A DNA stretch of 64,000 nt from Gemmatimonadales bacterium (GTDB lineage Bacteria; Gemmatimonadota; Gemmatimonadetes; Gemmatimonadales; GWC2-71-9). Location of the stretch: positions 5,403 through 69,402 of the forward strand of contig DATICZ010000103.1 of assembly GCA_035456525.1 (NCBI GenBank), given 5' to 3'. Below are positions 45,621 through 55,492 of the stretch, in pieces. Below the pieces are notes generated by a model. The model was not told the DNA's origin, made no database searches, and saw only the letters and a program-made list of their open reading frames with translations. Both the position numbers and the translations under genes were made by a program. Numbering within the stretch: position 1 is the first letter of the stretch; each line of letters begins with the position of its first letter.

Positions 45621-46310
45621 GTGTCCGCTGAACCGAGGCCCACCGCCGCACCGCAGCGCCGCTGGCCCATCTCGTCCGTGGTGCTCGTCACCGCCAATGT
45701 CATTCCGTTGCTCGGCGTGCTGGCCCACCACTGGACCGTGTTCGCGGTGGTGTTGCTCTACTGGTGCGAGAACGTGGTGGTGGGTGTGTTCAACGTGCTG
45801 CGGATGCTGTGGGCCCGGCCTCCGGACCCGGTGGCGCAGGCAGGGAAGATCTTTCTCGTACCTTTCTTTTGCGTGCACTACGGCGGATTCGCCTTCGTAC
45901 ACGGGGTGTTCGTGTTCGCCCTGTTCGGCGGCGATTTCAAGCAGGGCGGACTCGGATTCACCCCGCACATCGTGCTCACGGCCATCCGGCAGTCCGGTCT
46001 CGGCTGGGCCCTGGCCGCGCTGGTCGCGAGCCACGGGTTTTCCTTCCTTCACAACTACCTGGCGGGGGGCGAGTACCGCCGGGTAGGGTTGAGTCAGCTC
46101 ATGACGCAACCCTACGCCAGGGTGATGGTGCTCCACGTCGCGATCATCGGCGGGGCCTTCCTCGTGCAGGCCCTCGGCTCCGCCGTGCCAGCACTCGCGC
46201 TGCTCATCCTTCTCAAGACTGCGATCGATCTCGGCGCCCACATGGCCGAACGACGCAGGCTCGGCACGCTGCCTCCCGATCAGGCCGTCTTGGCGACGAC
46301 CTCCTCCTGA
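45621..46310 (+). CDS. polytopic membrane protein (DUF6498-like by memory)
   Basis: 229 aa with a GTG start and about 6 hydrophobic segments (VLLYWCENVVVGVFNVLRMLW...). It is divergent from the M14 gene, with only about 40 nt between the two starts. Confidence 0.65.
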   Translation: MSAEPRPTAAPQRRWPISSVVLVTANVIPLLGVLAHHWTVFAVVLLYWCENVVVGVFNVLRMLWARPPDPVAQAGKIFLVPFFCVHYGGFAFVHGVFVFALFGGDFKQGGLGFTPHIVLTAIRQSGLGWALAALVASHGFSFLHNYLAGGEYRRVGLSQLMTQPYARVMVLHVAIIGGAFLVQALGSAVPALALLILLKTAIDLGAHMAERRRLGTLPPDQAVLATTSS

Positions 46311-48919
46311 CGGAGCTGGGCCAGAGCCTCGCGCACCTGGTCGGTGACGTCTCGCTCCTCGCGCAGCGTATCGATCAGCGCTTCGGCCCGCTTGGCGTGC
46401 AGCTCCAGCGACGCCACGGTCCCGCTGACCTGGTCCACCACGGCCTTCTGGCCGTGCAGCAGCTCGAGATTCGACTGGACGTCGGCGAGCAGCGTCTCCA
46501 CCCGCCCGAGCCGTTCCTCCGCCTGCTCGATCTGCCGCTTGCGGTGGTCGAGCGTGCCGGCTGCTTCCTGCACGTCCCCGGCGAGCGACACGATGCGCTC
46601 GAGGGTTTGCCGCGTGACGGTGATCTCTTCCTTGGCGTCGGCGATGGCGCGGACGTCGTTCGTCGTCCGCTCGGCCAGGTCGAACAGTCGCTGCATGTCC
46701 GCGGCCAGCGCGTCGAGCGTCGAGCGCCGATCCACCACCTGCTCCAGACCGCGGGTGAGGGACGCCTCCAGCACCTCCCACCTGGTCAGCCGCTCCTCGA
46801 ACTGCGACATCCGCTTCTGCACCAACCGGAGTCCGCCGGCGCGCCCATCGAGCTCGTCCAGCGCCGCCGTGATCTCGCCCATCCGGCTGCCCGCCGTCCC
46901 GAGCGCACCGCTGAGCCGATCGCTCCGCTCTTCCAGCTGCTGCGCCGCGTTGACGGCCTGCTCCCGCAGGCGTGACGCCTCCGCGAGGTGCTCGGCGGCC
47001 TTGTCGAGTGCGGCCTGACGGCGATCGAGCTCCTGACCCAGCGCGTTGGTGCGATCCGCCAGATGTTCCACGCTCTGCGTGCGCGCCTCGACCGACGCGA
47101 GCGTCGCATCCACGTCCGCCACGCGCCGCTCGACCCGCTCCACCGTCGCGACCGCGGCCGGTACCAGCTGCTCGATGCGTCCCGCTTCCTCGGCGTGCGC
47201 CGCCAGGGCGAGGAACCGCTCGTCGGCCCCGTTCAACCGGCCCAGCAGCGTGTGGGTCCGCTCCTCGATCTGCGCCCCGCGGCCGGCGAGGTCGGCGAGC
47301 TTCGCGTTGAGCTCCTCCACCAGCTGCCGGCGCGCCTCCAACTCGCCCACCGACTGGGCCAGCCGGCTCGCCTCGTTCTTGACCACCTCGACCGTGGGAC
47401 GCAGGTCCTCGACCTCCTCGAGCTCCTCCCGCAAGGCGTCCACCGATGCGGTCACGCCGGCAAGCCACGCCTTCGTACCGGCCTGGCCCTCGCGGGCCCG
47501 CGCGAGGTCGGCCTCGGCCGCCTGAAGCTGCTCGAGCGCGTCCTTGACGGTTTCATGCGTGCCCCGCAAGCTCGCGACGTCGTGCAGCACCGCCTCGACC
47601 ACTGGCTTCGACTGCTCCAGGCGCGCCGTGCGTTGGGCCACGCCCTCCACCGTTTCCTGGAGCCGGACGGCGGTGGCCTCGATGGCCCGAACTCGCTCGG
47701 CCTGCTGCTCCAGCTCCCCGACGTCCTCGGCCACATCGTCCAGCTGTACCCGCAGCCCCTCGGTCCGCGCCTGCACCTCGGAGATCCGCTGGCTCGCCTC
47801 GTCGAGCGACCGCACGCGACCTTCCAGCTCCGTCAGGCCGCCGCGCAGATCCTGGATGCGCTGCCCCACGGAGTCGAGGCCCTGGTTCTCCAGCTCGAAG
47901 CGCTTGACGGTGCGCTCCACGTCATCCCGCAGCGTGGCGAGACGGCCGCGCAGTTCCTCGTCTCCACGCCTGAGCTCCTCGTGCTGCGTCTGCACCTGCA
48001 TCGAGCCCGAGAGGACCGACTCATGGGCGGCCTGCAGCTCGGCGAGCTTCGCTTCCATCGCGCCGAGACGCTTGGCGCCCTCTTCCTGGGCGCGCGTCCG
48101 CTCTTCGAGCTCCCGGTCGAGCTCGAGCAGACGCGTCATCTGGGCGGAGGTGCGCTCCACGACTTCACGCTGCTGCTCGATGGCCGTGACCTTCTGGGAG
48201 ACCGCGTCGGTGAGGGATTTCAGAGATCCGAGCTGACGCGCACTCTGCGCGGCGTCGGCGGCCACCTGCGTCAGGTGGGTAAGGGTACGTTCCAGGCCGG
48301 CGACGCGTGCCTCGGCGGCGACCACGCCGCCCTGAGCGTCCTGTTGCCGTTCCTCGAACGCGTTGAGCCGCTGCGCGGCCGACTCGCTCGCGCGGCGCAG
48401 CTCCTCCTGGCGCTCGCGCACCCGGTCGTAGCTCTGCGTCACTTCGCGGAGCTGCGTCAGGGCGGAGTCCGCGTCACCGCGAAGCTTGCTCAGCTCCGCG
48501 GCGCGCTCCAGAAAGGCGCCCAGCTCGCTCTTGAGCGCGAGCGCCTGCTCGAGCTGACCGCGCAACTCCTGGATCTCGCCGCGCAGCCGCTTGGCATCGT
48601 CGGAGGAGTGCCCCAGCTGCGTCTCCATGCGCCGCTGCAGCTTCGCGACCCCTTCGGTTTGCTCGTCGAGCGTGGCGAGCACGGGGACAACCCGTTCGAG
48701 CGCCTTGACGCGCGATTGCACCTCGCTCACCGAGCGGCGCGTCTCCTCCAGCGGCTGGACGATCTGATTGAGCTGCTGGGCGGATTCCTGCGCGCGGGTA
48801 TGCAGCGCTTCGAAGGCGGCGCGCTCCTGGCGCATCTGCGCCAGAATGGCGCGCAGCTCGGCGGGGAGCTCGGCGGTGTCGGATTGGTGACCGAAGAACT
48901 TGTTGAGCGAGACGGCCAT
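46280..48919 (-). CDS. 879-aa coiled-coil-rich protein with no recognisable enzymatic or membrane domain
   Basis: The E/A/L/Q/R-rich sequence is heptad-like from end to end. I saw no Walker motifs, TM segment or signal peptide. ATG 48919 (MAVSLNKFFG) is preferred over TTG 48937. The 661-aa plus-strand ORF 46988..48973 is its L/R/G-rich antisense shadow. Confidence 0.8.
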   Translation of the reverse strand: MAVSLNKFFGHQSDTAELPAELRAILAQMRQERAAFEALHTRAQESAQQLNQIVQPLEETRRSVSEVQSRVKALERVVPVLATLDEQTEGVAKLQRRMETQLGHSSDDAKRLRGEIQELRGQLEQALALKSELGAFLERAAELSKLRGDADSALTQLREVTQSYDRVRERQEELRRASESAAQRLNAFEERQQDAQGGVVAAEARVAGLERTLTHLTQVAADAAQSARQLGSLKSLTDAVSQKVTAIEQQREVVERTSAQMTRLLELDRELEERTRAQEEGAKRLGAMEAKLAELQAAHESVLSGSMQVQTQHEELRRGDEELRGRLATLRDDVERTVKRFELENQGLDSVGQRIQDLRGGLTELEGRVRSLDEASQRISEVQARTEGLRVQLDDVAEDVGELEQQAERVRAIEATAVRLQETVEGVAQRTARLEQSKPVVEAVLHDVASLRGTHETVKDALEQLQAAEADLARAREGQAGTKAWLAGVTASVDALREELEEVEDLRPTVEVVKNEASRLAQSVGELEARRQLVEELNAKLADLAGRGAQIEERTHTLLGRLNGADERFLALAAHAEEAGRIEQLVPAAVATVERVERRVADVDATLASVEARTQSVEHLADRTNALGQELDRRQAALDKAAEHLAEASRLREQAVNAAQQLEERSDRLSGALGTAGSRMGEITAALDELDGRAGGLRLVQKRMSQFEERLTRWEVLEASLTRGLEQVVDRRSTLDALAADMQRLFDLAERTTNDVRAIADAKEEITVTRQTLERIVSLAGDVQEAAGTLDHRKRQIEQAEERLGRVETLLADVQSNLELLHGQKAVVDQVSGTVASLELHAKRAEALIDTLREERDVTDQVREALAQLRQEEVVAKTA

Positions 48920-49131
48920 GGCGCGATCCCCGGGCAATGGGTCGGTGCGGCAACGCTTCTGGAAGGGCGCTGATGCAGGCGCCGGGTGAGGTAGGAACGC
49001 AACAGATATGCCGTGTCCGTCGGGGTGTCGCTACTACTTTGGCTGATTGAGGTTAGACTGTCGGGTGGTCTACTCCATCGTAGGCCTGCTCTCGCCTCGC
49101 GCAGGCGAAACTGCAAAATACCGCAAAACCC

Positions 49132-51303
49132 CTAAGGGGACCCATAGCGCAGCGCGCGCCTGCGCCATTCCGCGACGATCGCCGGCCATGCACGCGCAAA
49201 CAGCCGTGTCATATTCGCTTGGAGCTCCGCTCCAACGCCGGCAATGTACAGCTGCTTCACCGCCTCCATGCCACCCCGCTCGTAGACCATCTGCACGAAG
49301 ACCGCGCCGGCCGGATAATACTGCTCCCGAAAGCGCCCCGAGAGAATCGAGTCGAGCGTCACGGCCGGATGTTCCGCCAGAAAGGATGCCAGCCCGCGAG
49401 CAGCCGTGCGAAAGTCCGTCCCGGTCGTTCCACCCAGCCAGGTGGGCACGCCTTCCGAGACGAGATACGATGTGTTTCCCATCAAGGGCAGGAGCACCAT
49501 GTGCGCCAGCTCGTGACGGTAGTTCTCGCCCACCGCCGGGATACCCGAGAAGAGCTGGTGGTTCGTCGGCTGCGCGACGCCGCCCACCGGACCCCAGGTG
49601 ATGTCCGTCTCGAGTCCCATGATGCGGTACACCTGGTCCACCGACGTCGTCAGGTAGTAGGTCAGCGCTTCGAGACGAGGCACGCCGAACGTCGTGGCGA
49701 CGGAATCGATGAATGCGACGGCGCCCTCGGCACGGCCGCGGTCGAACGGGTAGCCGGGCTCCATGACGTAGGTGATGGGACCGACCGTCTCCTGACGCCA
49801 GGTGCTGGTGAGACGCGGCAGGGCGTTGGAGAAGACCCATCCGTCTCCGGAACGGACCGCGAAGACGGTCATCCTCACGCTGGGTGAGCGCATCGGGCTC
49901 GTGGCGCTGTCCTCGTCGAAGCGCGTGACGACGCGGTACACACTGTCCGAGACCGGCTCGATGGTGAGCACTTCCGGCCTGGCGCTGTCCGGCAGGTACG
50001 CCATGGCGAGGGCGTACACGCGCCACTGTCGTTGCTCGGCCGGTTGCCAGTAGGGTGATGGCTGCCAGGAGCCCAGGTGCCAGTACGGCGCCTTGGACTC
50101 CAGATACCGAAGCCACGTCCGGCGGATCTCCGCTTCCCGCGCGGCGGCGAAGTCAGGCCGGAATGCAGCGGCGGTCCTCGCGAGGTGCCGCCGCCATCGC
50201 GCGTCGAGCTGATCCTTCGGCACGCCGAGCAGGCGCGCGGCCGCGCCAAGCACCGAGTCCGGTTCCGCTCCTGCCTGCAGCCAGTCGCGCAGCGCCGCGA
50301 CTCCGCCGGCTGCGGCGATCATGTCGCACAGCACGGCGAACCCGTCGTAGCCGACGTCCAGCGTACCGACACGGGGCGGCGGCGCTTCCATGATGTCCCG
50401 GAGGGTGAGCCCCGGATGCGCCGCGACGTGGGCCGCGAGGTCAGGCAACAGGTCCTGGAAATCGAGGCCCGCCGAGCCCCCGGCCCACGTCATCAGACCT
50501 TCCATGACCAGGCCGGCGGTGCGACCCCGGCCGAGCAGGGGCTGGAGGACGACGTGGGCGAGCTCGTGGCGGTAGTCTTCGCCCCTCGACGACGAGCCGA
50601 TGAAGACGAGCCGGTCGGAGGTGTTCGAGCGGCCACCCACCGTGTCGGCGCCCAGCGGGAAGAATTCGAGACCGAGGGCCCGGAACGTCTCGATCAGATC
50701 GTCGGTGAAGTAGTAGCCGATCTGCGGCACCGGCAGGGCGAACGCGTGAGCCAGCGAATCGACGAATCGGGCGGCGCTCGTGGCGCGTGTGCGGTCGAAC
50801 GCGCGGGTCGGCGGATACACGAAGGTCACGGGGTCGATCGTGTCGTGGCGCCAATCCCGCGTCATCCGCGGCAGGGCGTTGGCGAGCACCCAGCGCCCCG
50901 CCTCGCGCACGGCGTAGACCCGAAACAGCGCCAGCGGCCGGACCGCCCCCGTCGAATCATCCACCGACGAGATCAGGGTGCGGATGAGGAAGGTGCTGTC
51001 GAGGCCGGGGGCGGGAGCGAGATGCACGACCGTGAAAGCGGAGAAGCCCTGATAGATGTAGCTGCCCAGCAGATCGAAGGCCGGCCACCGTCGCTGCTCG
51101 ACCGTCGCCCAATCGGGATGGGGGCGGATCGTATCCTGACGATGCGTGAGGTAATGGCGGTACAGTGCGAGAATCTCCCGTTCGGGCGATCGGGCGGTAT
51201 CGACCCCGAAGCCGAGCGCCAACCGGATCGGGGACTCTGGGGTCTGGGCACGCGCCCCAGCGCCGGCGGCGATGCCCAGGAGGAGAAGCGCGGCCCGTTT
51301 CAC
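49132..51303 (-). CDS. secreted protein made of two tandem ~350-aa modules, each with an HExxH...E (gluzincin-like) motif
   Basis: Signal peptide MKRAALLLLGIAAGAGARAQ. GEDYRHELAHVVLQPLLG...VMEGLMTW sits at residues 241-272 and GENYRHELAHMVLLPLMG...VSEGVPTW at 592-622, an offset of 351 residues. Other blocks also repeat, for example RVYAVREAGRWVLANALPRMTRDWRHDT against TVFAVRSGDGWVFSNALPRLTSTWRQET. Confidence 0.75.
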   Translation of the reverse strand: MKRAALLLLGIAAGAGARAQTPESPIRLALGFGVDTARSPEREILALYRHYLTHRQDTIRPHPDWATVEQRRWPAFDLLGSYIYQGFSAFTVVHLAPAPGLDSTFLIRTLISSVDDSTGAVRPLALFRVYAVREAGRWVLANALPRMTRDWRHDTIDPVTFVYPPTRAFDRTRATSAARFVDSLAHAFALPVPQIGYYFTDDLIETFRALGLEFFPLGADTVGGRSNTSDRLVFIGSSSRGEDYRHELAHVVLQPLLGRGRTAGLVMEGLMTWAGGSAGLDFQDLLPDLAAHVAAHPGLTLRDIMEAPPPRVGTLDVGYDGFAVLCDMIAAAGGVAALRDWLQAGAEPDSVLGAAARLLGVPKDQLDARWRRHLARTAAAFRPDFAAAREAEIRRTWLRYLESKAPYWHLGSWQPSPYWQPAEQRQWRVYALAMAYLPDSARPEVLTIEPVSDSVYRVVTRFDEDSATSPMRSPSVRMTVFAVRSGDGWVFSNALPRLTSTWRQETVGPITYVMEPGYPFDRGRAEGAVAFIDSVATTFGVPRLEALTYYLTTSVDQVYRIMGLETDITWGPVGGVAQPTNHQLFSGIPAVGENYRHELAHMVLLPLMGNTSYLVSEGVPTWLGGTTGTDFRTAARGLASFLAEHPAVTLDSILSGRFREQYYPAGAVFVQMVYERGGMEAVKQLYIAGVGAELQANMTRLFARAWPAIVAEWRRRALRYGSP

Positions 51304-51524
51304 CCCTGCTCCGCGTCCTTGAGGTGTCCGAAGCGGGAGTCATTCCCCAACAGCTGCTCGTCGAACCAGCGGTCGATGACGCTGCGGCGAAAGCGCCACT
51401 CCTTCCCCAGCTTCACCGCCGGGATGCGCTTCTCCTGCGCCCACTTGTAGATCGTCTGGGGCGTGAGCCGCAGGTAGGCGGCGACCTCGTCGATGGTGAG
51501 GATCTCGGGAGGTGTGCCGCTCAT
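51300..51524 (-). CDS. 74-aa helix-turn-helix DNA-binding protein (excisionase/MerR-type HTH)
   Basis: MSGTPPEILTIDEVAAYLRLTPQTIYKWAQEKRIPAVKLGKEWRFRRSVIDRWFDEQ. The start overlaps the upstream stop (ATGA), and the stop overlaps the downstream GTG start (GTGA). Confidence 0.75.
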   Translation of the reverse strand: MSGTPPEILTIDEVAAYLRLTPQTIYKWAQEKRIPAVKLGKEWRFRRSVIDRWFDEQLLGNDSRFGHLKDAEQG

Positions 51525-52327
51525 GGCCGGCGCAGTCGGGCGGTATCGACCGGTGAGGTCGTGAAGGGCAGGCTGTCGGTCACGCCCGGGCGGCGCCGTG
51601 TAGCCGGCTGGTCTTCCCCGCTGAACAACTTGTTGACCGCGTAGATCACGGCCGTGTAGAAGTTGCCCTGGTAGCTCCCGAAGACGCGGAACGGTTGATT
51701 GCGGTCGCCCAGGAAGGGCCGGAGGTTCCAGGCGAGCTGCACGCCCACGAACGCGAACAACAGCACCCAGGCCCGCATGATGGTCAGCGCCTTGCGCGGA
51801 TAGACGCCGCGCTTGTCGCACACTACGGCGAGGCCTTCGTGCAGCGCGTACATCCCGTACGCGCCGGCGATTCCCGCGATGGCGATGTTGAGCAGATGCT
51901 GGAAGTAGTAGTTCGCGCCGGTGAGCAGGAAGAATGCGATGACGGGCACGAACGCCGCGAGCAGGATCGAGGTGAGCGACAGCGCGCCGAACACCAGCAC
52001 GACCACCTGCGGCAGCCGCAACCGCGACCCGACCAGCACCTGCACCACGAAGAACGCCGGGAAGCAGATCACGAAGGTCGCGAAGAACAGCAGCGGCAGC
52101 TTGATCCCTGCCGAGATCGCCTGGGCGGGGCCGGAATACGCACCCGCCACGAGACCGAAAAAGCCCGCGAGGGCAACGACGGTCAGCGTGCTGTGCAGGA
52201 GCTTCTTGCCGAGCCCGGTCCCGTCCACCACCTCTTCGAAGAATTGTTCCCGGTTACTGAGCAGCGCGGCAAGGAAGTCCCGGTAGCTGGTGATGGGGGC
52301 GGCGCGTTCGGCCATAGGAGGCTCCAA
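51521..52327 (-). CDS. polytopic membrane protein of unknown function (5-6 TM)
   Basis: 268 aa. The TTG start at 52327 has GGAGG 6 nt upstream. An alternative ATG lies at 52315 (MAERAAPITSYRDFL). The hydrophobic core is followed by a conserved-looking LAWNLRPFLGDRNQPFRVFGSYQGNFYTAV. Confidence 0.7.
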   Translation of the reverse strand: MEPPMAERAAPITSYRDFLAALLSNREQFFEEVVDGTGLGKKLLHSTLTVVALAGFFGLVAGAYSGPAQAISAGIKLPLLFFATFVICFPAFFVVQVLVGSRLRLPQVVVLVFGALSLTSILLAAFVPVIAFFLLTGANYYFQHLLNIAIAGIAGAYGMYALHEGLAVVCDKRGVYPRKALTIMRAWVLLFAFVGVQLAWNLRPFLGDRNQPFRVFGSYQGNFYTAVIYAVNKLFSGEDQPATRRRPGVTDSLPFTTSPVDTARLRRP

Positions 52328-52391
52328 GGAGGACCTCCTATGATGAACAACTACTACTGTTTCGTCAAGTTTGTTGCTGTTTATAGATGAT
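52328..52391 (-). promoter_or_regulatory. AT-rich intergenic island, likely promoter/leader of the 52327 operon
   Basis: About 39 percent GC by hand count, in otherwise very GC-rich DNA. On the minus strand it contains TATAAA, then TTGACG, and 17 nt after that CATCAT, then GGAGG and the TTG start. Confidence 0.4.
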
Positions 52392-55046
52392 TTATTCGGT
52401 CCTGAGCACTCCCGCCGGATCAGCCCGGCTGGCCCGCAGCGCCGGGAGCCAGGAGGCGATCAACGCGGTGAGCGCCAACAAGACGGAAACGGTGACGAAA
52501 GTCGTCGGGTCACGTGGTGGCACCTCATAGAGGAGAGTGCGGATCGCCCGCGCACCGGCCAGCGCCCCCGACAAACCCAGCGCGAGCCCCACGCCGACCA
52601 CCTGGAGGCCGTGCCGGACGACGAGCCACTGTACCTGTGGAGCGCGCGCGCCGAGCGCCAGCCGAATGCCCATCTCGCGGGTGCGCCGGCGGCCCAGCTG
52701 CGTCATCACGCCGTAGACACCCACCAGGGCGAGCAGCACGCCGGTCACGGCGAAGATCAACAGCAGGCACATGAGGAATCGCCGATCCGCGATGGAGCGT
52801 GCCTGCATGCCTTCCAGCGGCCGCACCAGATCGGGCGCCAGGTCCCGGTCGAGCCCGCTGACGACTCGGCGGACGGCGGGCGCGAGCGCCGCTGCTTCGT
52901 TTTCGGCCCGCACGAACAGCGTCATGTAGCTGTTGGCGTTCTGCGCCGCCGGCTCGTACGCCTCGATCAGCGGCTCGATCGACAGGCCACGTTGCCGCAC
53001 ATCCCCGACGACCCCGACGATGGTGCGCCACACCGACGTCGAATCGGGGATCTTGTCGAAGGTGATCCGCTGTCCGATCGGATCCTCGCCCCGGAAGTAC
53101 CGGCGTGCCAGCGCCTCGTTGATGATCGTCACCGGCACCGAGCCCGACCGGTCGGCGGGCGTGAAGTACCGTCCCGCGCGCAGCGGAATCCGCAGCGTCC
53201 GGAAATAGTCGGGCGTCACGAAATCGTGCCCCACCTCGGTGCCGTAGTCGTTCGCCGGCCGACCCGCGATGTGGAAGTCGCTGGTGTACGCCACGCCGCT
53301 GCCCGCAAAGGGCGCGACGACCGCCTCGGCCGCCCCCACGACGCCAGGGAGGGCGCGCACTCGCTCCTCCAGTGCCTCGTAGAATGCGTGCTGGCTGGCG
53401 GCGCTGTCGTATCCTCGCGAAAGCTCGATGCCGACCGCGAGCACGCCGTGGGCGTCGAGCCCGACCGGAACGCGCTGCAGTCGCCAGAAGCTGCGAACCA
53501 GCAGCCCCGCGCCCACCGTCAGGATCAGCGCCAGTGCGACCTCCCCCGCCACCAGCGTGTCGGCCCACGTCCGCAGACGCCGGCTCGTGCCGGTCCGCTC
53601 TCCCTCCTTCAGTACTTCGGCCGGGACGCGGCGCGCGCTCCACAGGACCGGCGCCGACCCGAAGAGCAATCCGGTGAGCGTCGTGAGGGCGACCATCGCC
53701 GCGAGTACCGACACGTCCATCGGCACATGCGCAACGGGCAGCATGCCGGGTGGCTGCAGTACGGCGAGCGCCCGCGTCCCGTACCACCCCAACGCCACTC
53801 CGGCCAGTCCGCCAAGCGCGGAGAGCACCAGGCTCTCGGTGAGCGCCTGCCGCGCGAGGCGGCCTCGCCCCGCGCCCAGCGCGAGCCGCAGGGCAGCCTC
53901 CCGCTCCCGGCCGAGCGCGTGGGCCAGGAGCAGATTGGCCACGTTCGCGCAGGCGATCAGCAGCAGCAGGCCGACGGCGGCCTGCAGGAAGAGCAGCGCC
54001 AATCGCACGTCGCCCACGAGGAATTCGTGCAGCGGCACGAGATCCGCGCCCATCACCCGGTTGGTGACCGGATACTCGTTCTGCAGCTGACGCACGACCG
54101 TCTGGAATTCCGCGTCGGCCGCCCGCGGGGTCACGCCGGGCTTCAACCGGGCCACCACGCGCAGCCAATGGGCGCGCCGGAAGAAGTCCTGCGACCGGAG
54201 CTGGGGATCCCAGCGCATGGGACGCCACAGGTCGAAGGAATCGGCCGCGAAGGTGAAATCCGCAGGCATGACGCCCACGATCTCGGTGAGCGTGCCGTCG
54301 AGCGAGATGGTGCGGCCGACGGCGCGTTCGTCGCCGCCGAACAGGTCCCGTGCCAGGCGATGGCTGACGACGGCGACGGGAGTTCCCCCGCTCCAAGTCT
54401 CGGCGTCCACAAACACCCGACCGGCCTCCGGACGGACCTGGAGCACGGCGAAGTAGTTGCCCGTCACCGCCCGCTCGCGCACGCGCCGCGGGATGTCCAG
54501 GCCACTCAGAGTGGTGCCTCCCCCGGGAGCGTACGCCGCGACGTCTTCGAAGGCCTGGACCCGCTCCTTCCAGTCGAGGTAGTTGGCCGGGGCGGCGACC
54601 TGCCGGCGCCACCCCTTCTCGGGGTTGTCCTCCGAGAGCATCACGAGGCGTTCCGCATGTGGGAACGGCAATGGGCGCAGGATGACCGCGTTGACGGCGG
54701 AGAAGATTGCGGTGTTGGCGCCGATGCCGAGGGCGAGGGTCAGGATGGCGGCGCCGCTCAAGGCCGGATTGTGTCGCAGCGTCCGCAGGGCGAAGCGCGC
54801 GTCGGCGACGGCATCCTCCAGCCAGCGCACACCGCGTCCGTCGCGATGCGCCTCCTTCACCACTTCCACTCCGCCGAAGCGCACCAGCGCCGCCCGGCGT
54901 GCTTCGTCGGGGGCGAGTCCCCGCGCCCGATTCTTTTCGGCCTCGAGCTCCAGGTGGTGGCGGATCTCATCGTCCAGCTCCTGCTCGGTCGCGGCACGCC
55001 GGAACAGCGCGCGCCACCGCAGCAGCACCCCGCGCACGAATCCCAT
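52392..55046 (-). CDS. ADOP-type duplicated FtsX-domain ABC permease (MacB-like)
   Basis: Starts MGFVRGVLLRWRALFRRAATEQELDDEIRHHLE, the characteristic permease prefix. Two FtsX-like four-TM modules are separated by large periplasmic domains. The first 83 codons of the track ORF are junk. Confidence 0.9.
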   Translation of the reverse strand: MGFVRGVLLRWRALFRRAATEQELDDEIRHHLELEAEKNRARGLAPDEARRAALVRFGGVEVVKEAHRDGRGVRWLEDAVADARFALRTLRHNPALSGAAILTLALGIGANTAIFSAVNAVILRPLPFPHAERLVMLSEDNPEKGWRRQVAAPANYLDWKERVQAFEDVAAYAPGGGTTLSGLDIPRRVRERAVTGNYFAVLQVRPEAGRVFVDAETWSGGTPVAVVSHRLARDLFGGDERAVGRTISLDGTLTEIVGVMPADFTFAADSFDLWRPMRWDPQLRSQDFFRRAHWLRVVARLKPGVTPRAADAEFQTVVRQLQNEYPVTNRVMGADLVPLHEFLVGDVRLALLFLQAAVGLLLLIACANVANLLLAHALGREREAALRLALGAGRGRLARQALTESLVLSALGGLAGVALGWYGTRALAVLQPPGMLPVAHVPMDVSVLAAMVALTTLTGLLFGSAPVLWSARRVPAEVLKEGERTGTSRRLRTWADTLVAGEVALALILTVGAGLLVRSFWRLQRVPVGLDAHGVLAVGIELSRGYDSAASQHAFYEALEERVRALPGVVGAAEAVVAPFAGSGVAYTSDFHIAGRPANDYGTEVGHDFVTPDYFRTLRIPLRAGRYFTPADRSGSVPVTIINEALARRYFRGEDPIGQRITFDKIPDSTSVWRTIVGVVGDVRQRGLSIEPLIEAYEPAAQNANSYMTLFVRAENEAAALAPAVRRVVSGLDRDLAPDLVRPLEGMQARSIADRRFLMCLLLIFAVTGVLLALVGVYGVMTQLGRRRTREMGIRLALGARAPQVQWLVVRHGLQVVGVGLALGLSGALAGARAIRTLLYEVPPRDPTTFVTVSVLLALTALIASWLPALRASRADPAGVLRTE

Positions 55047-55378
55047 CAGGCGCTCTCCAAGATGCAGTCGACCGCGGACACGTAGCGCCGCCAGCCCTCG
55101 GTCTCGGTCCCCAGCGCCCGCCGGCCCTGCGGCGTCAGCCGGTAGTACCGGGCCCGGCGGTTGTGATCGCTGGTGCGCCACTCGCTGTCGATCCAGCCCT
55201 TGAGCTCGAGCCGCTGCAGCGCCGGGTAGAGCGAGCCCTGGTTCACGTCCAGCACGCCACGCGAGATCTGTTCGATGCGCTGGCTGATGCCCCACCCGTG
55301 CATCGGCTCGAGCGTCAGGGTCTTCAGGATCAGGAGATCGAGGGTGCCGCGCAAAACGTCGGTGGACGAGGTGGCCAT
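55046..55378 (-). CDS. PadR family transcriptional regulator
   Basis: 110 aa. LRGTLDLLILKTLTLEPMHGWGISQRIEQISRGVLDVNQGSLYPALQRLELKGWI. The stop overlaps the ADOP start by 1 nt (TGATG). Confidence 0.9.
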   Translation of the reverse strand: MATSSTDVLRGTLDLLILKTLTLEPMHGWGISQRIEQISRGVLDVNQGSLYPALQRLELKGWIDSEWRTSDHNRRARYYRLTPQGRRALGTETEGWRRYVSAVDCILESA

Positions 55379-55492
55379 GGATCGCTTGTGTCGAGTTCCG
55401 ACAAATAGGGCGCCGCTCCTGTCGAAAGTCAAGAGGAGCGACCGCCGGTTGCCGCCCGTGATGCCGGGTGTAGTTTCGCTGCGCACTGGACG

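What the first reader, a model, noticed from the sequence alone, without database searches (positions are those of the whole stretch)
49132..52327. Tightly overlapped triad of polytopic membrane protein, 74-aa HTH and secreted double-gluzincin-like protein: candidate uncharacterised module
Three genes with very different predicted locations are chained by 4-nt overlaps: ATGA at 51521-51524 and GTGA at 51300-51303. The first product is inner-membrane, the second cytoplasmic and DNA-binding, the third exported. They sit behind an AT-rich promoter island with a consensus SD. A small excisionase/MerR-type HTH embedded between a membrane protein and an exported HExxH protein is an unusual arrangement. 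It suggests stoichiometric co-production, for example a membrane-tethered or membrane-gated regulator controlling or sensing an extracytoplasmic peptidase. I cannot match the triad to a described system. There is no integrase or phage context to explain the HTH.
Basis: inference. Interest (0 to 1): 0.55.

Follow-up and report, generated by a model that had tools for sequence, protein, structure and literature searches.

The report
Membrane protein–small regulator pair with repeat operator
The three overlapping genes are real, but only the first two (a five-helix membrane protein and a tiny BldC-like DNA-binding protein) form a conserved unit, found across several bacterial phyla and always preceded by 10-bp AAACA repeats that look like the regulator's own binding site; the exported double zinc-peptidase is lineage-specific cargo.

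Summary
Observation confirmed: three minus-strand genes are chained by ATGA and GTGA overlaps behind an AT-rich promoter. Homologues put the first gene's start at ATG 52315, not TTG 52327.

The triad interpretation is not supported. In 86 related loci the HTH gene follows the membrane gene in all 84 assessable cases, with a 4-nt overlap in 73 of 81. The HExxH protein follows in only about 9. Conversely, only 18 of about 70 assessable peptidase loci sit next to the pair. Other lineages carry unrelated genes in the third slot.

The conserved unit is a two-gene cassette plus a cis element. Three to five direct 10-bp repeats (AAACA[G/T]TAnn) overlap the -35 box. They occur in 65 of 78 upstream regions, nowhere else in 1.24 Mb of flanks, and not upstream of HTH-less paralogues. 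The HTH is a single-domain protein whose nearest solved relative is BldC, which binds direct repeats head-to-tail.

Best explanation: an autoregulated operon whose HTH binds the array, possibly gated by its membrane partner (inferred). The membrane protein has no Pfam or NCBIfam family and no PDB fold match. The 723-aa protein is a fusion of two paralogous gluzincin modules.

No description of the cassette turned up in the family libraries or the four literature searches run. Chondrinema litorale, a cultured species, carries it.

The parts
52353..52392 (-). Array of four direct 10-bp repeats: AATCATCTAT, AAACAGCAAC, AAACTTGACG, AAACAGTAGT. Candidate operator of the HTH protein.
   Evidence: This is the only match to (AAACA-N5)x2-AAAC with up to 2 mismatches in the 64-kb window (0.01 expected). 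The same array, at a strict 10-bp period, is present in 65 of 78 orthologous upstream regions and absent from 1.24 Mb of the remaining locus sequence. Unit consensus AAACA[G/T]TAnn.
52340..52368 (-). Sigma-70-like promoter: -35 TTGACG (52368-52363), 17-nt spacer, -10 CATCAT (52345-52340). The -35 lies inside repeat 3 and repeat 4 lies in the spacer.
   Evidence: Consensus scan. The TTGAC sits at a conserved position within the array across loci.
52316..52339 (-). Short leader with the GGAG Shine-Dalgarno 6 nt before ATG 52315. It can form a hairpin that includes the SD.
   Evidence: Sequence and folds. The folding energy is not significantly better than shuffles (z -0.6 to -1.5), so the hairpin is only noted.
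51521..52315 (-). Polytopic membrane protein gene (264 aa from ATG 52315; the ORF extends to TTG 52327). Five long TM helices, two short N-terminal helices and a C-terminal amphipathic helix plus a disordered basic tail. The family has no Pfam or NCBIfam model.
   Evidence: 1821 cluster representatives at E<=1e-3; AF2 pLDDT 88, pTM 0.84; no PDB fold match, best E 1.6.
51300..51524 (-). 74-aa single-domain winged-HTH protein (HTH_17/excisionase-type, BldC-like). Its start overlaps the membrane gene's stop (ATGA).
   Evidence: Pfam HTH_17 at E 2.6e-18. Nearest solved structures are BldC 6AMK/6AMA at E 0.003. Orthologues in the fetched loci are 64-99% identical by tblastn, including a conserved C-terminal tail. 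The 4-nt overlap is kept in 73 of 81 loci.
49132..51303 (-). 723-aa exported protein made of two fused paralogous gluzincin-like modules (N module about 50176-51303, C module 49132-50175), each with HELAH...E. This is lineage-specific cargo appended to the operon through a GTGA overlap.
   Evidence: most homologues are single modules of about 400 aa in two subtypes, with H246, E247, H250 and E268 invariant. AF2 pLDDT 86.6. Foldseek hits to M1 peptidase 6A8Z at E 9e-6, LTA4H and M9 collagenases; linkage to the pair is facultative.

Best explanation
The locus is an autoregulated two-gene cassette with a passenger gene. A sigma-70-type promoter is embedded in an array of four direct 10-bp repeats (AAACA[G/T]TAnn). 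It drives a 5-TM membrane protein gene and, translationally coupled through ATGA, a 74-aa single-domain winged-HTH protein of the BldC/excisionase (HTH_17) type.

I propose that the HTH protein binds the repeat array as a head-to-tail multimer, one protomer per repeat as BldC does, and so controls its own operon by covering the -35 box.

The obligatory, stoichiometric co-production with the membrane protein suggests that the membrane protein is either the regulated product or the input device. In the second case it would hold or release the effector-domain-less HTH at the membrane.

In this lineage a fused double gluzincin peptidase has been appended to the operon, so it is co-expressed. It is not part of the conserved system.

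Shown here: gene structure, coupling, phylogenetic linkage of pair and array, absence of the array where the HTH is absent, the folds, and the non-conservation of the third gene. Inferred: that the HTH is what binds the array, the direction of regulation, and any physical contact with the membrane protein.
For: 1. Linkage. The HTH directly follows the membrane gene in 84 of 86 loci, and the other 2 are contig ends. Record titles name Gemmatimonadales, Longimicrobiales, Eisenbacteria, Fermentibacteria, Acidobacteriota, Limnocylindrales and Planctomycetaceae MAGs. Linkage persists at 40% and 32% identity and in cultured Chondrinema litorale, Bacteroidota.

2. Coupling. An (A/G/T)TGA 4-nt overlap is present in 73 of 81 loci.

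3. Array. Three AAACA cores at an exact 10-bp period (>=13 of 15 matches) occur in 65 of 78 unique upstream regions. There are no hits at periods 8, 9 or 11 (one at period 12), none in shuffles, and none in the remaining 1.24 Mb of the loci on both strands. The window has a single site against 0.01 expected. An independent set of loci shows the array only upstream of the pair.

4. The array tracks the HTH rather than the membrane family. It is present in GC-rich and AT-rich lineages that have the HTH. It is absent upstream of the four HTH-less paralogues whose DNA was read (L090-L092, L175).

5. BldC analogy. BldC is the nearest solved structure. BldC binds 9-bp AT-rich direct repeats head-to-tail at 2:1 to 4:1 stoichiometry through F21, W31 and L43, and reads a G through R30 (PMC5859096). 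The aligned residues here are L, W, L and K/R, and they are conserved across the orthologues.

6. The HTH has a conserved C-terminal tail (DRWLDEQ.L..SGF.HL) beyond the DNA-binding fold. HTH-linked membrane proteins share a loop motif, CE(K/Q)RGVYP(K/R), that is largely missing from the distant members of alignment A1, including all those found to lack an HTH partner. Both are candidate contact surfaces.
Against: There is no direct evidence that this HTH binds the array. 10-bp-phased A-rich repeats upstream of -35 can act as curved or UP-like DNA. OmpR/PhoB-type response regulators also bind TAAACA-like direct repeats.

The protein scores only 28.4 bits on NCBIfam HTH_BldC against a cut-off of 77. 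It scores higher on the defence-associated MAD1 model, at 72.9 against a cut-off of 80.

Topology by the positive-inside rule puts the membrane protein's N-terminus and loops 2 and 4 in the cytoplasm, but leaves the basic C-tail ambiguous. No interaction surface is therefore established.

Only about 4 kb on either side of the pair in each locus, plus 64 kb here, were scanned. A wider regulon cannot be assessed.
Confidence: 0.6

Rival explanations
1. One reading: all three genes form one functional system in which a membrane-tethered or membrane-gated HTH senses or controls the exported HExxH peptidase.
For: In this window the three genes are chained by 4-nt overlaps, so they are co-transcribed. 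In 18 metagenomic loci and about 8 MAG loci a homologous peptidase sits immediately after the HTH, for example with a 1-nt gap in L123.
Against: The peptidase family has only 34 clusters against more than 1200 for the membrane protein. Linkage is about 10% in one direction and about 25% in the other. L001 keeps the flanking synteny but lacks the peptidase. The third slot holds unrelated genes elsewhere. Stand-alone peptidase genes never carry the AAACA array.
Confidence: 0.05
2. The pair is a toxin-antitoxin-like or anti-phage defence module. The membrane protein would be the toxin or effector and the HTH an autoregulating antitoxin or a MAD1-like defence regulator.
For: The layout resembles reverse-order type II TA loci: a larger gene first, a small HTH second with a 4-nt overlap, and an operator at the promoter. 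The HTH scores 72.9 bits on NCBIfam antiphage_MADS1 and E 5.9e-10 on PADLOC mad1.
Against: The MAD1 score is below its cut-off of 80, and no other MADS or PADLOC component is present. The membrane protein has no PADLOC hit. The pair shows high identity across whole phyla (HTH orthologues 64-99% identical by tblastn), only one copy was seen in the window and in each fetched locus, and no mobile-element genes were seen nearby. GC content at the locus is close to that of the rest of the window. There are no matches in 50,697 phage records and one in 72,556 plasmids, on a non-mobilizable 162-kb replicon.
Confidence: 0.1
3. The AAACA array is not the HTH's site. It is intrinsically curved or UP-like promoter DNA, or the target of another conserved regulator such as an OmpR/PhoB-type response regulator. 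The HTH acts elsewhere, or acts architecturally like Xis or RacA.
For: A-rich tracts phased at 10 bp bend DNA, and PhoP-type boxes read TAAACA on one strand (both from established knowledge, not tested here). No binding data exist.
Against: The C at position 4 and the A at position 5 are about 90% conserved, which goes beyond an A-tract requirement. The period is exactly 10 bp, not 11. The array travels with the HTH gene through genomes of 37% to 70% GC and across several phyla, and is missing where the HTH is missing. A trans-acting regulator encoded elsewhere would have to be equally conserved in all of these lineages.
Confidence: 0.2

Closest known systems
BldC of Streptomyces (founding member of the BldC family of single-domain MerR-like wHTH regulators; PDB 6AMA/6AMK; PMC5859096)
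   Same: Both are proteins of about 70 aa that consist only of a winged HTH, with no effector or dimerisation domain. BldC is the nearest solved structure. The hydrophobic head-to-tail residues (BldC F21, W31, L43) align with L, W and L, and the base-reading R30 aligns with K/R. BldC operators are 2-4 AT-rich direct repeats of 9 bp. Here there are 3-5 AT-rich direct repeats of 10 bp at the protein's own promoter.
   Different: Sequence similarity is weak (E 0.003; NCBIfam HTH_BldC 28.4 bits against a cut-off of 77). The repeat unit is AAACA[G/T]TAnn with a 10-bp period rather than AATTXXXX(C). This protein has a conserved extra C-terminal tail. It is always encoded behind, and translationally coupled to, a polytopic membrane protein. 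The two BldC papers consulted, and a text search for 'BldC-like' with 'membrane protein', mention no such partner.
Excisionases / recombination directionality factors (lambda Xis, TorI; Pfam HTH_17, TIGR01764)
   Same: Same domain family (HTH_17 at E 2.6e-18; TIGR01764 at 57.5 bits, above its cut-off). Xis also binds direct repeats head-to-tail.
   Different: There is no integrase, att site or prophage context in the window or in any inspected locus. The gene is vertically conserved with a membrane-protein partner.
Membrane sequestration of transcription factors by polytopic membrane proteins (for example Mlc by PtsG, or anti-sigma factors); also transporter-then-MerR-type regulator operons such as bmr-bmrR
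   Same: These share the logic that a cytoplasmic DNA-binding protein lacking its own sensor is controlled by, or co-expressed with, a membrane protein (established knowledge; analogy only).
   Different: There is no sequence or structural relationship, and no interaction has been shown here. The partner family is uncharacterised.
Yip1-domain membrane proteins (Pfam PF04893)
   Same: Similar size and five-TM layout with a cytoplasmic N-terminal segment. Three of 37 distant family members give weak PF04893 hits (best E 1e-4).
   Different: The window protein itself gives no hit. No solved structure matched. No function can be transferred.
Gluzincin (clan MA) metallopeptidases: two-domain M1 peptidase of Deinococcus (6A8Z), LTA4H, M9 collagenase catalytic domain
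   Same: HExxH plus a downstream Glu are invariant. The predicted fold matches at Foldseek probability 1.0 and E 9e-6 to 6e-4.
   Different: There is no Pfam or NCBIfam peptidase hit. The M1 GxMEN exopeptidase motif is absent (sequence). TM-scores are only 0.3-0.4. The N-terminal beta-rich domain and the tandem fusion of two paralogous modules are specific to this small family.

Membership tests
BldC family (single-domain MerR-like wHTH regulators) | The protein consists only of a wHTH of about 70 aa, with no coiled-coil or effector domain | tested here: met
   74 aa. The HTH_17 match covers residues 9-57 and no other domain is found.
BldC family (single-domain MerR-like wHTH regulators) | Score above the NCBIfam HTH_BldC (NF033787) cut-off | tested here: not met
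   28.4 bits against a cut-off of 77. The phmmer match to BldC chains is E 0.003-0.008.
BldC family (single-domain MerR-like wHTH regulators) | Hydrophobic residues at the head-to-tail interface (BldC F21, W31, L43), which are charged or polar in classical MerR proteins | tested here: met
   The alignment places L, W and L at these positions. All three are conserved across 81 orthologues. The criterion comes from PMC5859096. BldC residue numbering was assigned from my recollection of its sequence.
BldC family (single-domain MerR-like wHTH regulators) | Cooperative head-to-tail binding to AT-rich direct repeats | not testable with these tools
   A suitable array of 3-5 direct 10-bp repeats is conserved at the protein's own promoter. 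Binding itself was not measured.
Excisionase / recombination directionality factor | Encoded with a cognate integrase on a prophage or integrative element | tested here: not met
   No integrase or phage genes are present in the window neighbours or in any inspected locus.
MADS defence system protein MAD1 | Score above the NF047737 cut-off, with the other MADS genes adjacent | tested here: not met
   72.9 bits against a cut-off of 80. The neighbours have no PADLOC hits and no methyltransferase or other MADS genes are seen.
Yip1 domain family (PF04893) | Significant match to the Pfam model | tested here: inconclusive
   The window protein gives no hit at E<=1. Three of 37 distant relatives hit weakly, best E 1e-4.
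Type II toxin-antitoxin module | Patchy, mobile distribution with a toxin of a recognised family | tested here: not met
   The pair is conserved across several phyla. There are no phage hits and one plasmid hit. No toxin family matches. Toxicity itself was not testable.
Gluzincin metallopeptidases (clan MA) | HExxH zinc motif plus a third-ligand Glu about 15-25 residues downstream | tested here: met
   HELAH-x17-E in module 1 and HELAH-x15-E in module 2 (counted in the sequence). H246, E247, H250 and E268 are invariant in 21 sequences.
Gluzincin metallopeptidases (clan MA) | Thermolysin-like catalytic fold | tested here: met
   AF2 pLDDT 86.6. Foldseek hits to M1 and M9 catalytic domains at probability 1.0 and E down to 9e-6.
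M1 aminopeptidase family | GxMEN exopeptidase motif and a Pfam Peptidase_M1 match | tested here: not met
   No 'MEN' motif in the sequence and no Pfam peptidase hit at E<=1.

The most novel reading that the evidence does not exclude
The 5-TM protein and the BldC-like HTH together form a previously unrecognised kind of transmembrane signalling unit, found mainly in Gemmatimonadota and FCB-group lineages (Eisenbacteria, Fermentibacteria, Bacteroidota). The membrane protein would sense an envelope or membrane cue and reversibly hold the effector-less HTH, perhaps through its cytoplasmic CE(K/Q)RGVYP loop and the HTH's SGFxHL tail. That would set how many protomers polymerise head-to-tail on the AAACA repeat array, and so the expression of the operon and of whatever cargo gene each lineage has appended to it.
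Probability: 0.3. Interest if true: 0.7.

Novelty: new variant of a known kind. Interest (0 to 1): 0.55.

Why it matters
BldC-type regulators have no sensor domain. BldC is the only member whose DNA-binding mechanism I found described in the papers consulted. An obligatory, translationally coupled membrane partner would offer one answer to how such minimal regulators receive signals.

The cassette consists of a promoter array, a membrane gene and an HTH gene. It is compact and sharply defined. It is conserved in poorly studied soil phyla (Gemmatimonadota, Eisenbacteria). It is also present in a cultured Bacteroidota species, Chondrinema litorale WSW3-B12 (WP_284688992.1 and WP_284688991.1), so it can be tested directly.

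The analysis also defines a large membrane-protein family with no Pfam or NCBIfam model and no solved structural analogue (more than 1800 clusters at 50% identity). It shows that the third position of the operon is a slot where lineages plug in varied genes, several of them predicted exported or membrane proteins.

For annotation, it corrects the tempting reading that the double peptidase belongs to the system.

Tried and rejected
1. Triad co-occurrence was tested in both directions and rejected.

2. Pfam, NCBIfam and PADLOC scans of the membrane protein and the 723-aa protein gave only spurious sub-threshold hits (holin, SpoVAE, salactin).

3. A sequence search of the PDB with the 723-aa protein found nothing useful.

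4. A Foldseek search of the PDB with the confident membrane-protein model gave no match better than E 1.6, so no function can be transferred by fold.

5. The longer family members (320-413 aa) were checked for a fused HTH. None has one. One MAG locus, L021, encodes an in-frame membrane-HTH fusion. A single case in a MAG could be a 1-nt assembly error and was not used as evidence.

7. The first attempt at a genome scan with the very diverse alignment failed because it had no conserved stretch. It was repeated with closer sequences.

8. The leader hairpin that covers the SD folds no better than shuffled sequence, so it was not claimed as a regulatory element.

9. Literature searches found no description of the pair. 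The terms were the NCBI product name 'actin-binding WH2 domain-containing protein', 'BldC-like' with 'membrane protein', and excisionase-family HTH with translational coupling and membrane protein.

10. The NCBI product name 'actin-binding WH2 domain-containing protein' on two orthologues is probably a motif-level artefact of the N-terminal G.GL.KKL segment. That explanation is my inference.


Full report
**1. What is in the window**

Three ORFs lie head-to-tail on the minus strand. A 268-aa hydrophobic protein spans 51521-52327. A 74-aa protein spans 51300-51524. A 723-aa protein spans 49132-51303.

Upstream lies an AT-rich stretch in an otherwise 65-73% GC window. It contains a TTGACG-17-CATCAT promoter-like site at 52368-52340.

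More than 100 homologues of the first protein start four residues downstream of the TTG, at MAERA.... The real start is therefore most likely ATG 52315, preceded by GGAG.

The neighbours are a MacB/FtsX-type permease with a PadR regulator upstream, and a long coiled-coil protein plus DUF6498 downstream. There is no integrase or phage gene.

**2. Identity of the three products**

*The 74-aa protein.* It is an HTH_17/excisionase-type winged HTH (Pfam E 2.6e-18; TIGR01764 57.5 bits). It falls below the cut-offs of the MAD1 model (72.9 against 80) and the BldC model (28.4 against 77). Its nearest solved relatives are the two BldC structures 6AMK and 6AMA (E 0.003-0.008).

*The membrane protein.* It has no Pfam, NCBIfam or PADLOC family. 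It nevertheless belongs to a large family, with 1821 representatives of 50%-identity clusters at E<=1e-3. AF2 gives a confident model (pLDDT 88, pTM 0.84). The model has two short N-terminal helices, five long transmembrane helices, a conserved loop, an amphipathic helix and a disordered basic tail. No PDB structure resembles it (best Foldseek E 1.6). Three of 37 distant members hit Yip1 weakly.

*The 723-aa protein.* It has a signal-peptide-like N-terminus and two paralogous modules of about 360 aa. Most of its 34 homologous clusters are single modules of about 400 aa. They fall into two subtypes that match the N and C halves respectively. H-E-x-x-H and a downstream Glu within EG..TW.GG are invariant. 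The AF2 model of the N module (pLDDT 86.6) matches M1-type and M9-type gluzincin catalytic domains (E down to 9e-6, probability 1.0). 'Double gluzincin-like' is therefore correct. It is not an M1 family member: it has no GxMEN motif and no Pfam hit.

**3. Test of the triad**

I fetched 80 genome loci and 6 metagenome loci that encode relatives of the membrane protein at 55-92% identity. A tblastn search with the three window proteins gave these results:
- The HTH lies immediately downstream in 84 of 86 loci. The two exceptions end at the contig edge.
- A peptidase homologue lies downstream in only 8 loci, and upstream on the other strand in 1.

For the reverse test I fetched 80 metagenome loci through the peptidase. 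Of these, 18 have the pair directly upstream, 52 have room for it but lack it, and the rest are too short to judge.

L001 is 83% identical in the membrane protein. It keeps the downstream coiled-coil and DUF6498 genes but has a CsbD gene where the peptidase is.

Clustering of the genes that follow the HTH shows a variable slot:
- the HExxH protein (7 loci);
- a beta-lactamase-family hydrolase (5 loci, 4-nt overlap);
- an M28 peptidase (3 near-identical loci);
- a TMEM260/PMT_2-like glycosyltransferase, a SnoaL/DUF4440 protein and a CDGSH protein (each with a 4-nt overlap);
- many singletons.

The three-gene system is not conserved. The peptidase is cargo.

**4. The conserved unit**

In 73 of 81 loci the HTH start overlaps the membrane gene's stop by 4 nt, as ATGA, GTGA or TTGA. 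Linkage persists in several more distant cases:
- relatives at 40% identity, whose neighbours carry Por_Secre_tail domains;
- an AT-rich relative at 32% identity;
- the cultured Bacteroidota species Chondrinema litorale, on a 162-kb non-mobilizable replicon.

Other relatives at about 30-36% identity (225-256 aa) have no HTH next to them.

The HTH orthologues are strikingly conserved, at 64-99% identity by tblastn across the fetched loci. The shared pattern is EILT.EEVA.YLRL.PQTIYKWAQE.RIPA.KLGKEWRFR.S..D.W. It includes a C-terminal tail (Q.L...SGF.HL) outside the DNA-binding fold.

**5. A conserved direct-repeat array**

Aligning the upstream regions by eye revealed tandem repeats of AAACA with a 10-bp period that end at or overlap the -35 TTGAC.

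Quantified, three AAACA cores at exactly 10-bp spacing with at least 13 of 15 matches occur as follows:
- 65 of 78 unique upstream regions;
- no upstream region at periods 8, 9 or 11, and one at period 12;
- no mononucleotide shuffle;
- no position in the remaining 1.24 Mb of the loci, on either strand.

The window has one such site, 52353-52392, with four units, against 0.01 expected. The unit consensus from 202 units is AAACA[G/T]TAnn. Positions 1-5 are about 90-99% conserved.

The array is also present in the relatives at 40% and 32% identity and in C. litorale, in genomes as low as 37% GC. It is absent upstream of the four HTH-less paralogues whose DNA was read. In the independent peptidase-centred loci (473 kb) it occurs only upstream of the pair, never before a stand-alone peptidase gene.

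The array therefore travels with the HTH gene.

**6. Mechanism**

BldC is a single-domain MerR-like wHTH. It binds 9-bp AT-rich direct repeats as head-to-tail multimers at 2:1 to 4:1. The hydrophobic contacts are F21, W31 and L43, and R30 reads a G (PMC5859096). In the alignment with BldC the corresponding residues here are L, W, L and K/R, and they are conserved in the orthologues.

The simplest reading is that the 74-aa protein polymerises on the 3-5 repeats at its own promoter and autoregulates the operon. Because the array covers the -35 box and, in Gemmatimonadales, the spacer, repression is the more likely direction. BldC-like distortion could also activate.

The invariant translational coupling to the membrane protein has two possible meanings. 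The membrane protein may be the regulated product. Alternatively, it may supply the input that the effector-less HTH lacks, for example by sequestering it. Candidate surfaces are the loop-4 motif CE(K/Q)RGVYP(K/R), which is shared by HTH-linked members, and the HTH tail.

This last step is inference.

**7. Rivals**

*Toxin-antitoxin or defence module.* This fits the layout and the sub-threshold MAD1 similarity. It does not fit the high conservation across several phyla, the lack of mobile-element genes near the pair, the absence from 50,697 phage records, or the single hit among 72,556 plasmids.

*Array as curved or UP-like DNA, or as a response-regulator site.* This cannot be excluded without binding data. 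It is disfavoured by the strict 10-bp register, the conserved C at position 4, and the co-inheritance with the HTH.

*Xis-like role in recombination.* This lacks any integrase context.

**8. Novelty and verdict**

No Pfam, NCBIfam or PADLOC model, no solved structure, and no paper among the four text searches run covers the membrane protein or the pair. The DNA-binding partner belongs to a known kind, the BldC/excisionase-type wHTH that binds direct repeats. The obligatory membrane partner and the conserved self-operator make it a new variant of that kind.

Its triad interpretation fails its own refutation test. Its underlying suspicion of an uncharacterised membrane-linked HTH module is upheld and sharpened. 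Interest is moderate (0.55).

Noticed in passing
window 52316-52345 (- strand); L001, L007-L019 leaders: The short leader can form a hairpin whose 3' arm is the GGAG Shine-Dalgarno (CUCC-N2-3-GGAG with flanking pairs). Related loci keep a hairpin with different stem sequences. Folding energies are not better than shuffles (z -0.6 to -1.5), so this may be chance.
   Followed up: partly
L021 3986-4942: One Gemmatimonadetes MAG encodes the membrane protein and the HTH as a single in-frame 318-aa ORF with no stop at the usual GTGA. This could be a natural fusion, which would argue that the C-tail is cytoplasmic, or a 1-nt assembly error.
   Followed up: partly
L054-L060, L011, L069, L067, L004-L006 (gene after the HTH): The position after the HTH is a variable slot. 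It holds a beta-lactamase-family hydrolase, a TMEM260/PMT_2-like glycosyltransferase, a SnoaL/DUF4440 protein, a CDGSH iron-sulfur protein or an M28 peptidase. Several of these overlap the HTH stop by 4 nt, and several look exported or membrane-bound.
   Followed up: partly
window 49132-51303; L120, L123, L151: The 723-aa protein is a fusion of two paralogous gluzincin modules. In some relatives an A-type gene is followed by a short separate stretch that resembles the B-type module. Only a small clade (P0121-P0125) has the fused form.
   Followed up: partly
window 52392-55486 (- strand): A PadR regulator (55046-55486) precedes a 967-aa MacB_PCD/FtsX permease ORF (52392-55295). The two ORF calls overlap by about 250 nt, so the permease probably starts at an internal codon. 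This pairing recurs upstream of the cassette in L001 only as a short FtsX gene.
   Followed up: no
window 45621-48937; L001 7813-11021: An 885-aa coiled-coil protein and a convergent DUF6498 membrane protein lie downstream of the operon. They are syntenic in L001, which shows that the peptidase gene sits between the HTH gene and this conserved block.
   Followed up: partly
P0108, P0328 (orthologues of the membrane protein): NCBI names two orthologues 'actin-binding WH2 domain-containing protein'. No such domain was found by Pfam or NCBIfam here. The name probably reflects the N-terminal G.GL.KKL motif and should not be propagated.
   Followed up: partly
membrane protein residues C84 and C166 (window 51521-52315): Two cysteines are invariant in the HTH-linked subfamily. 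C166 lies in the cytoplasmic loop-4 motif, which is largely missing from the distant family members, including those that lack an HTH partner. A redox-sensing role is conceivable but untested.
   Followed up: no
L177 (Chondrinema litorale NZ_CP111057.1, 51388-52459): A cultured Bacteroidota strain carries the cassette on a 162-kb non-mobilizable replicon: membrane protein WP_284688992.1, HTH WP_284688991.1 and an AAACA x3 array upstream. This offers an experimental system.
   Followed up: yes
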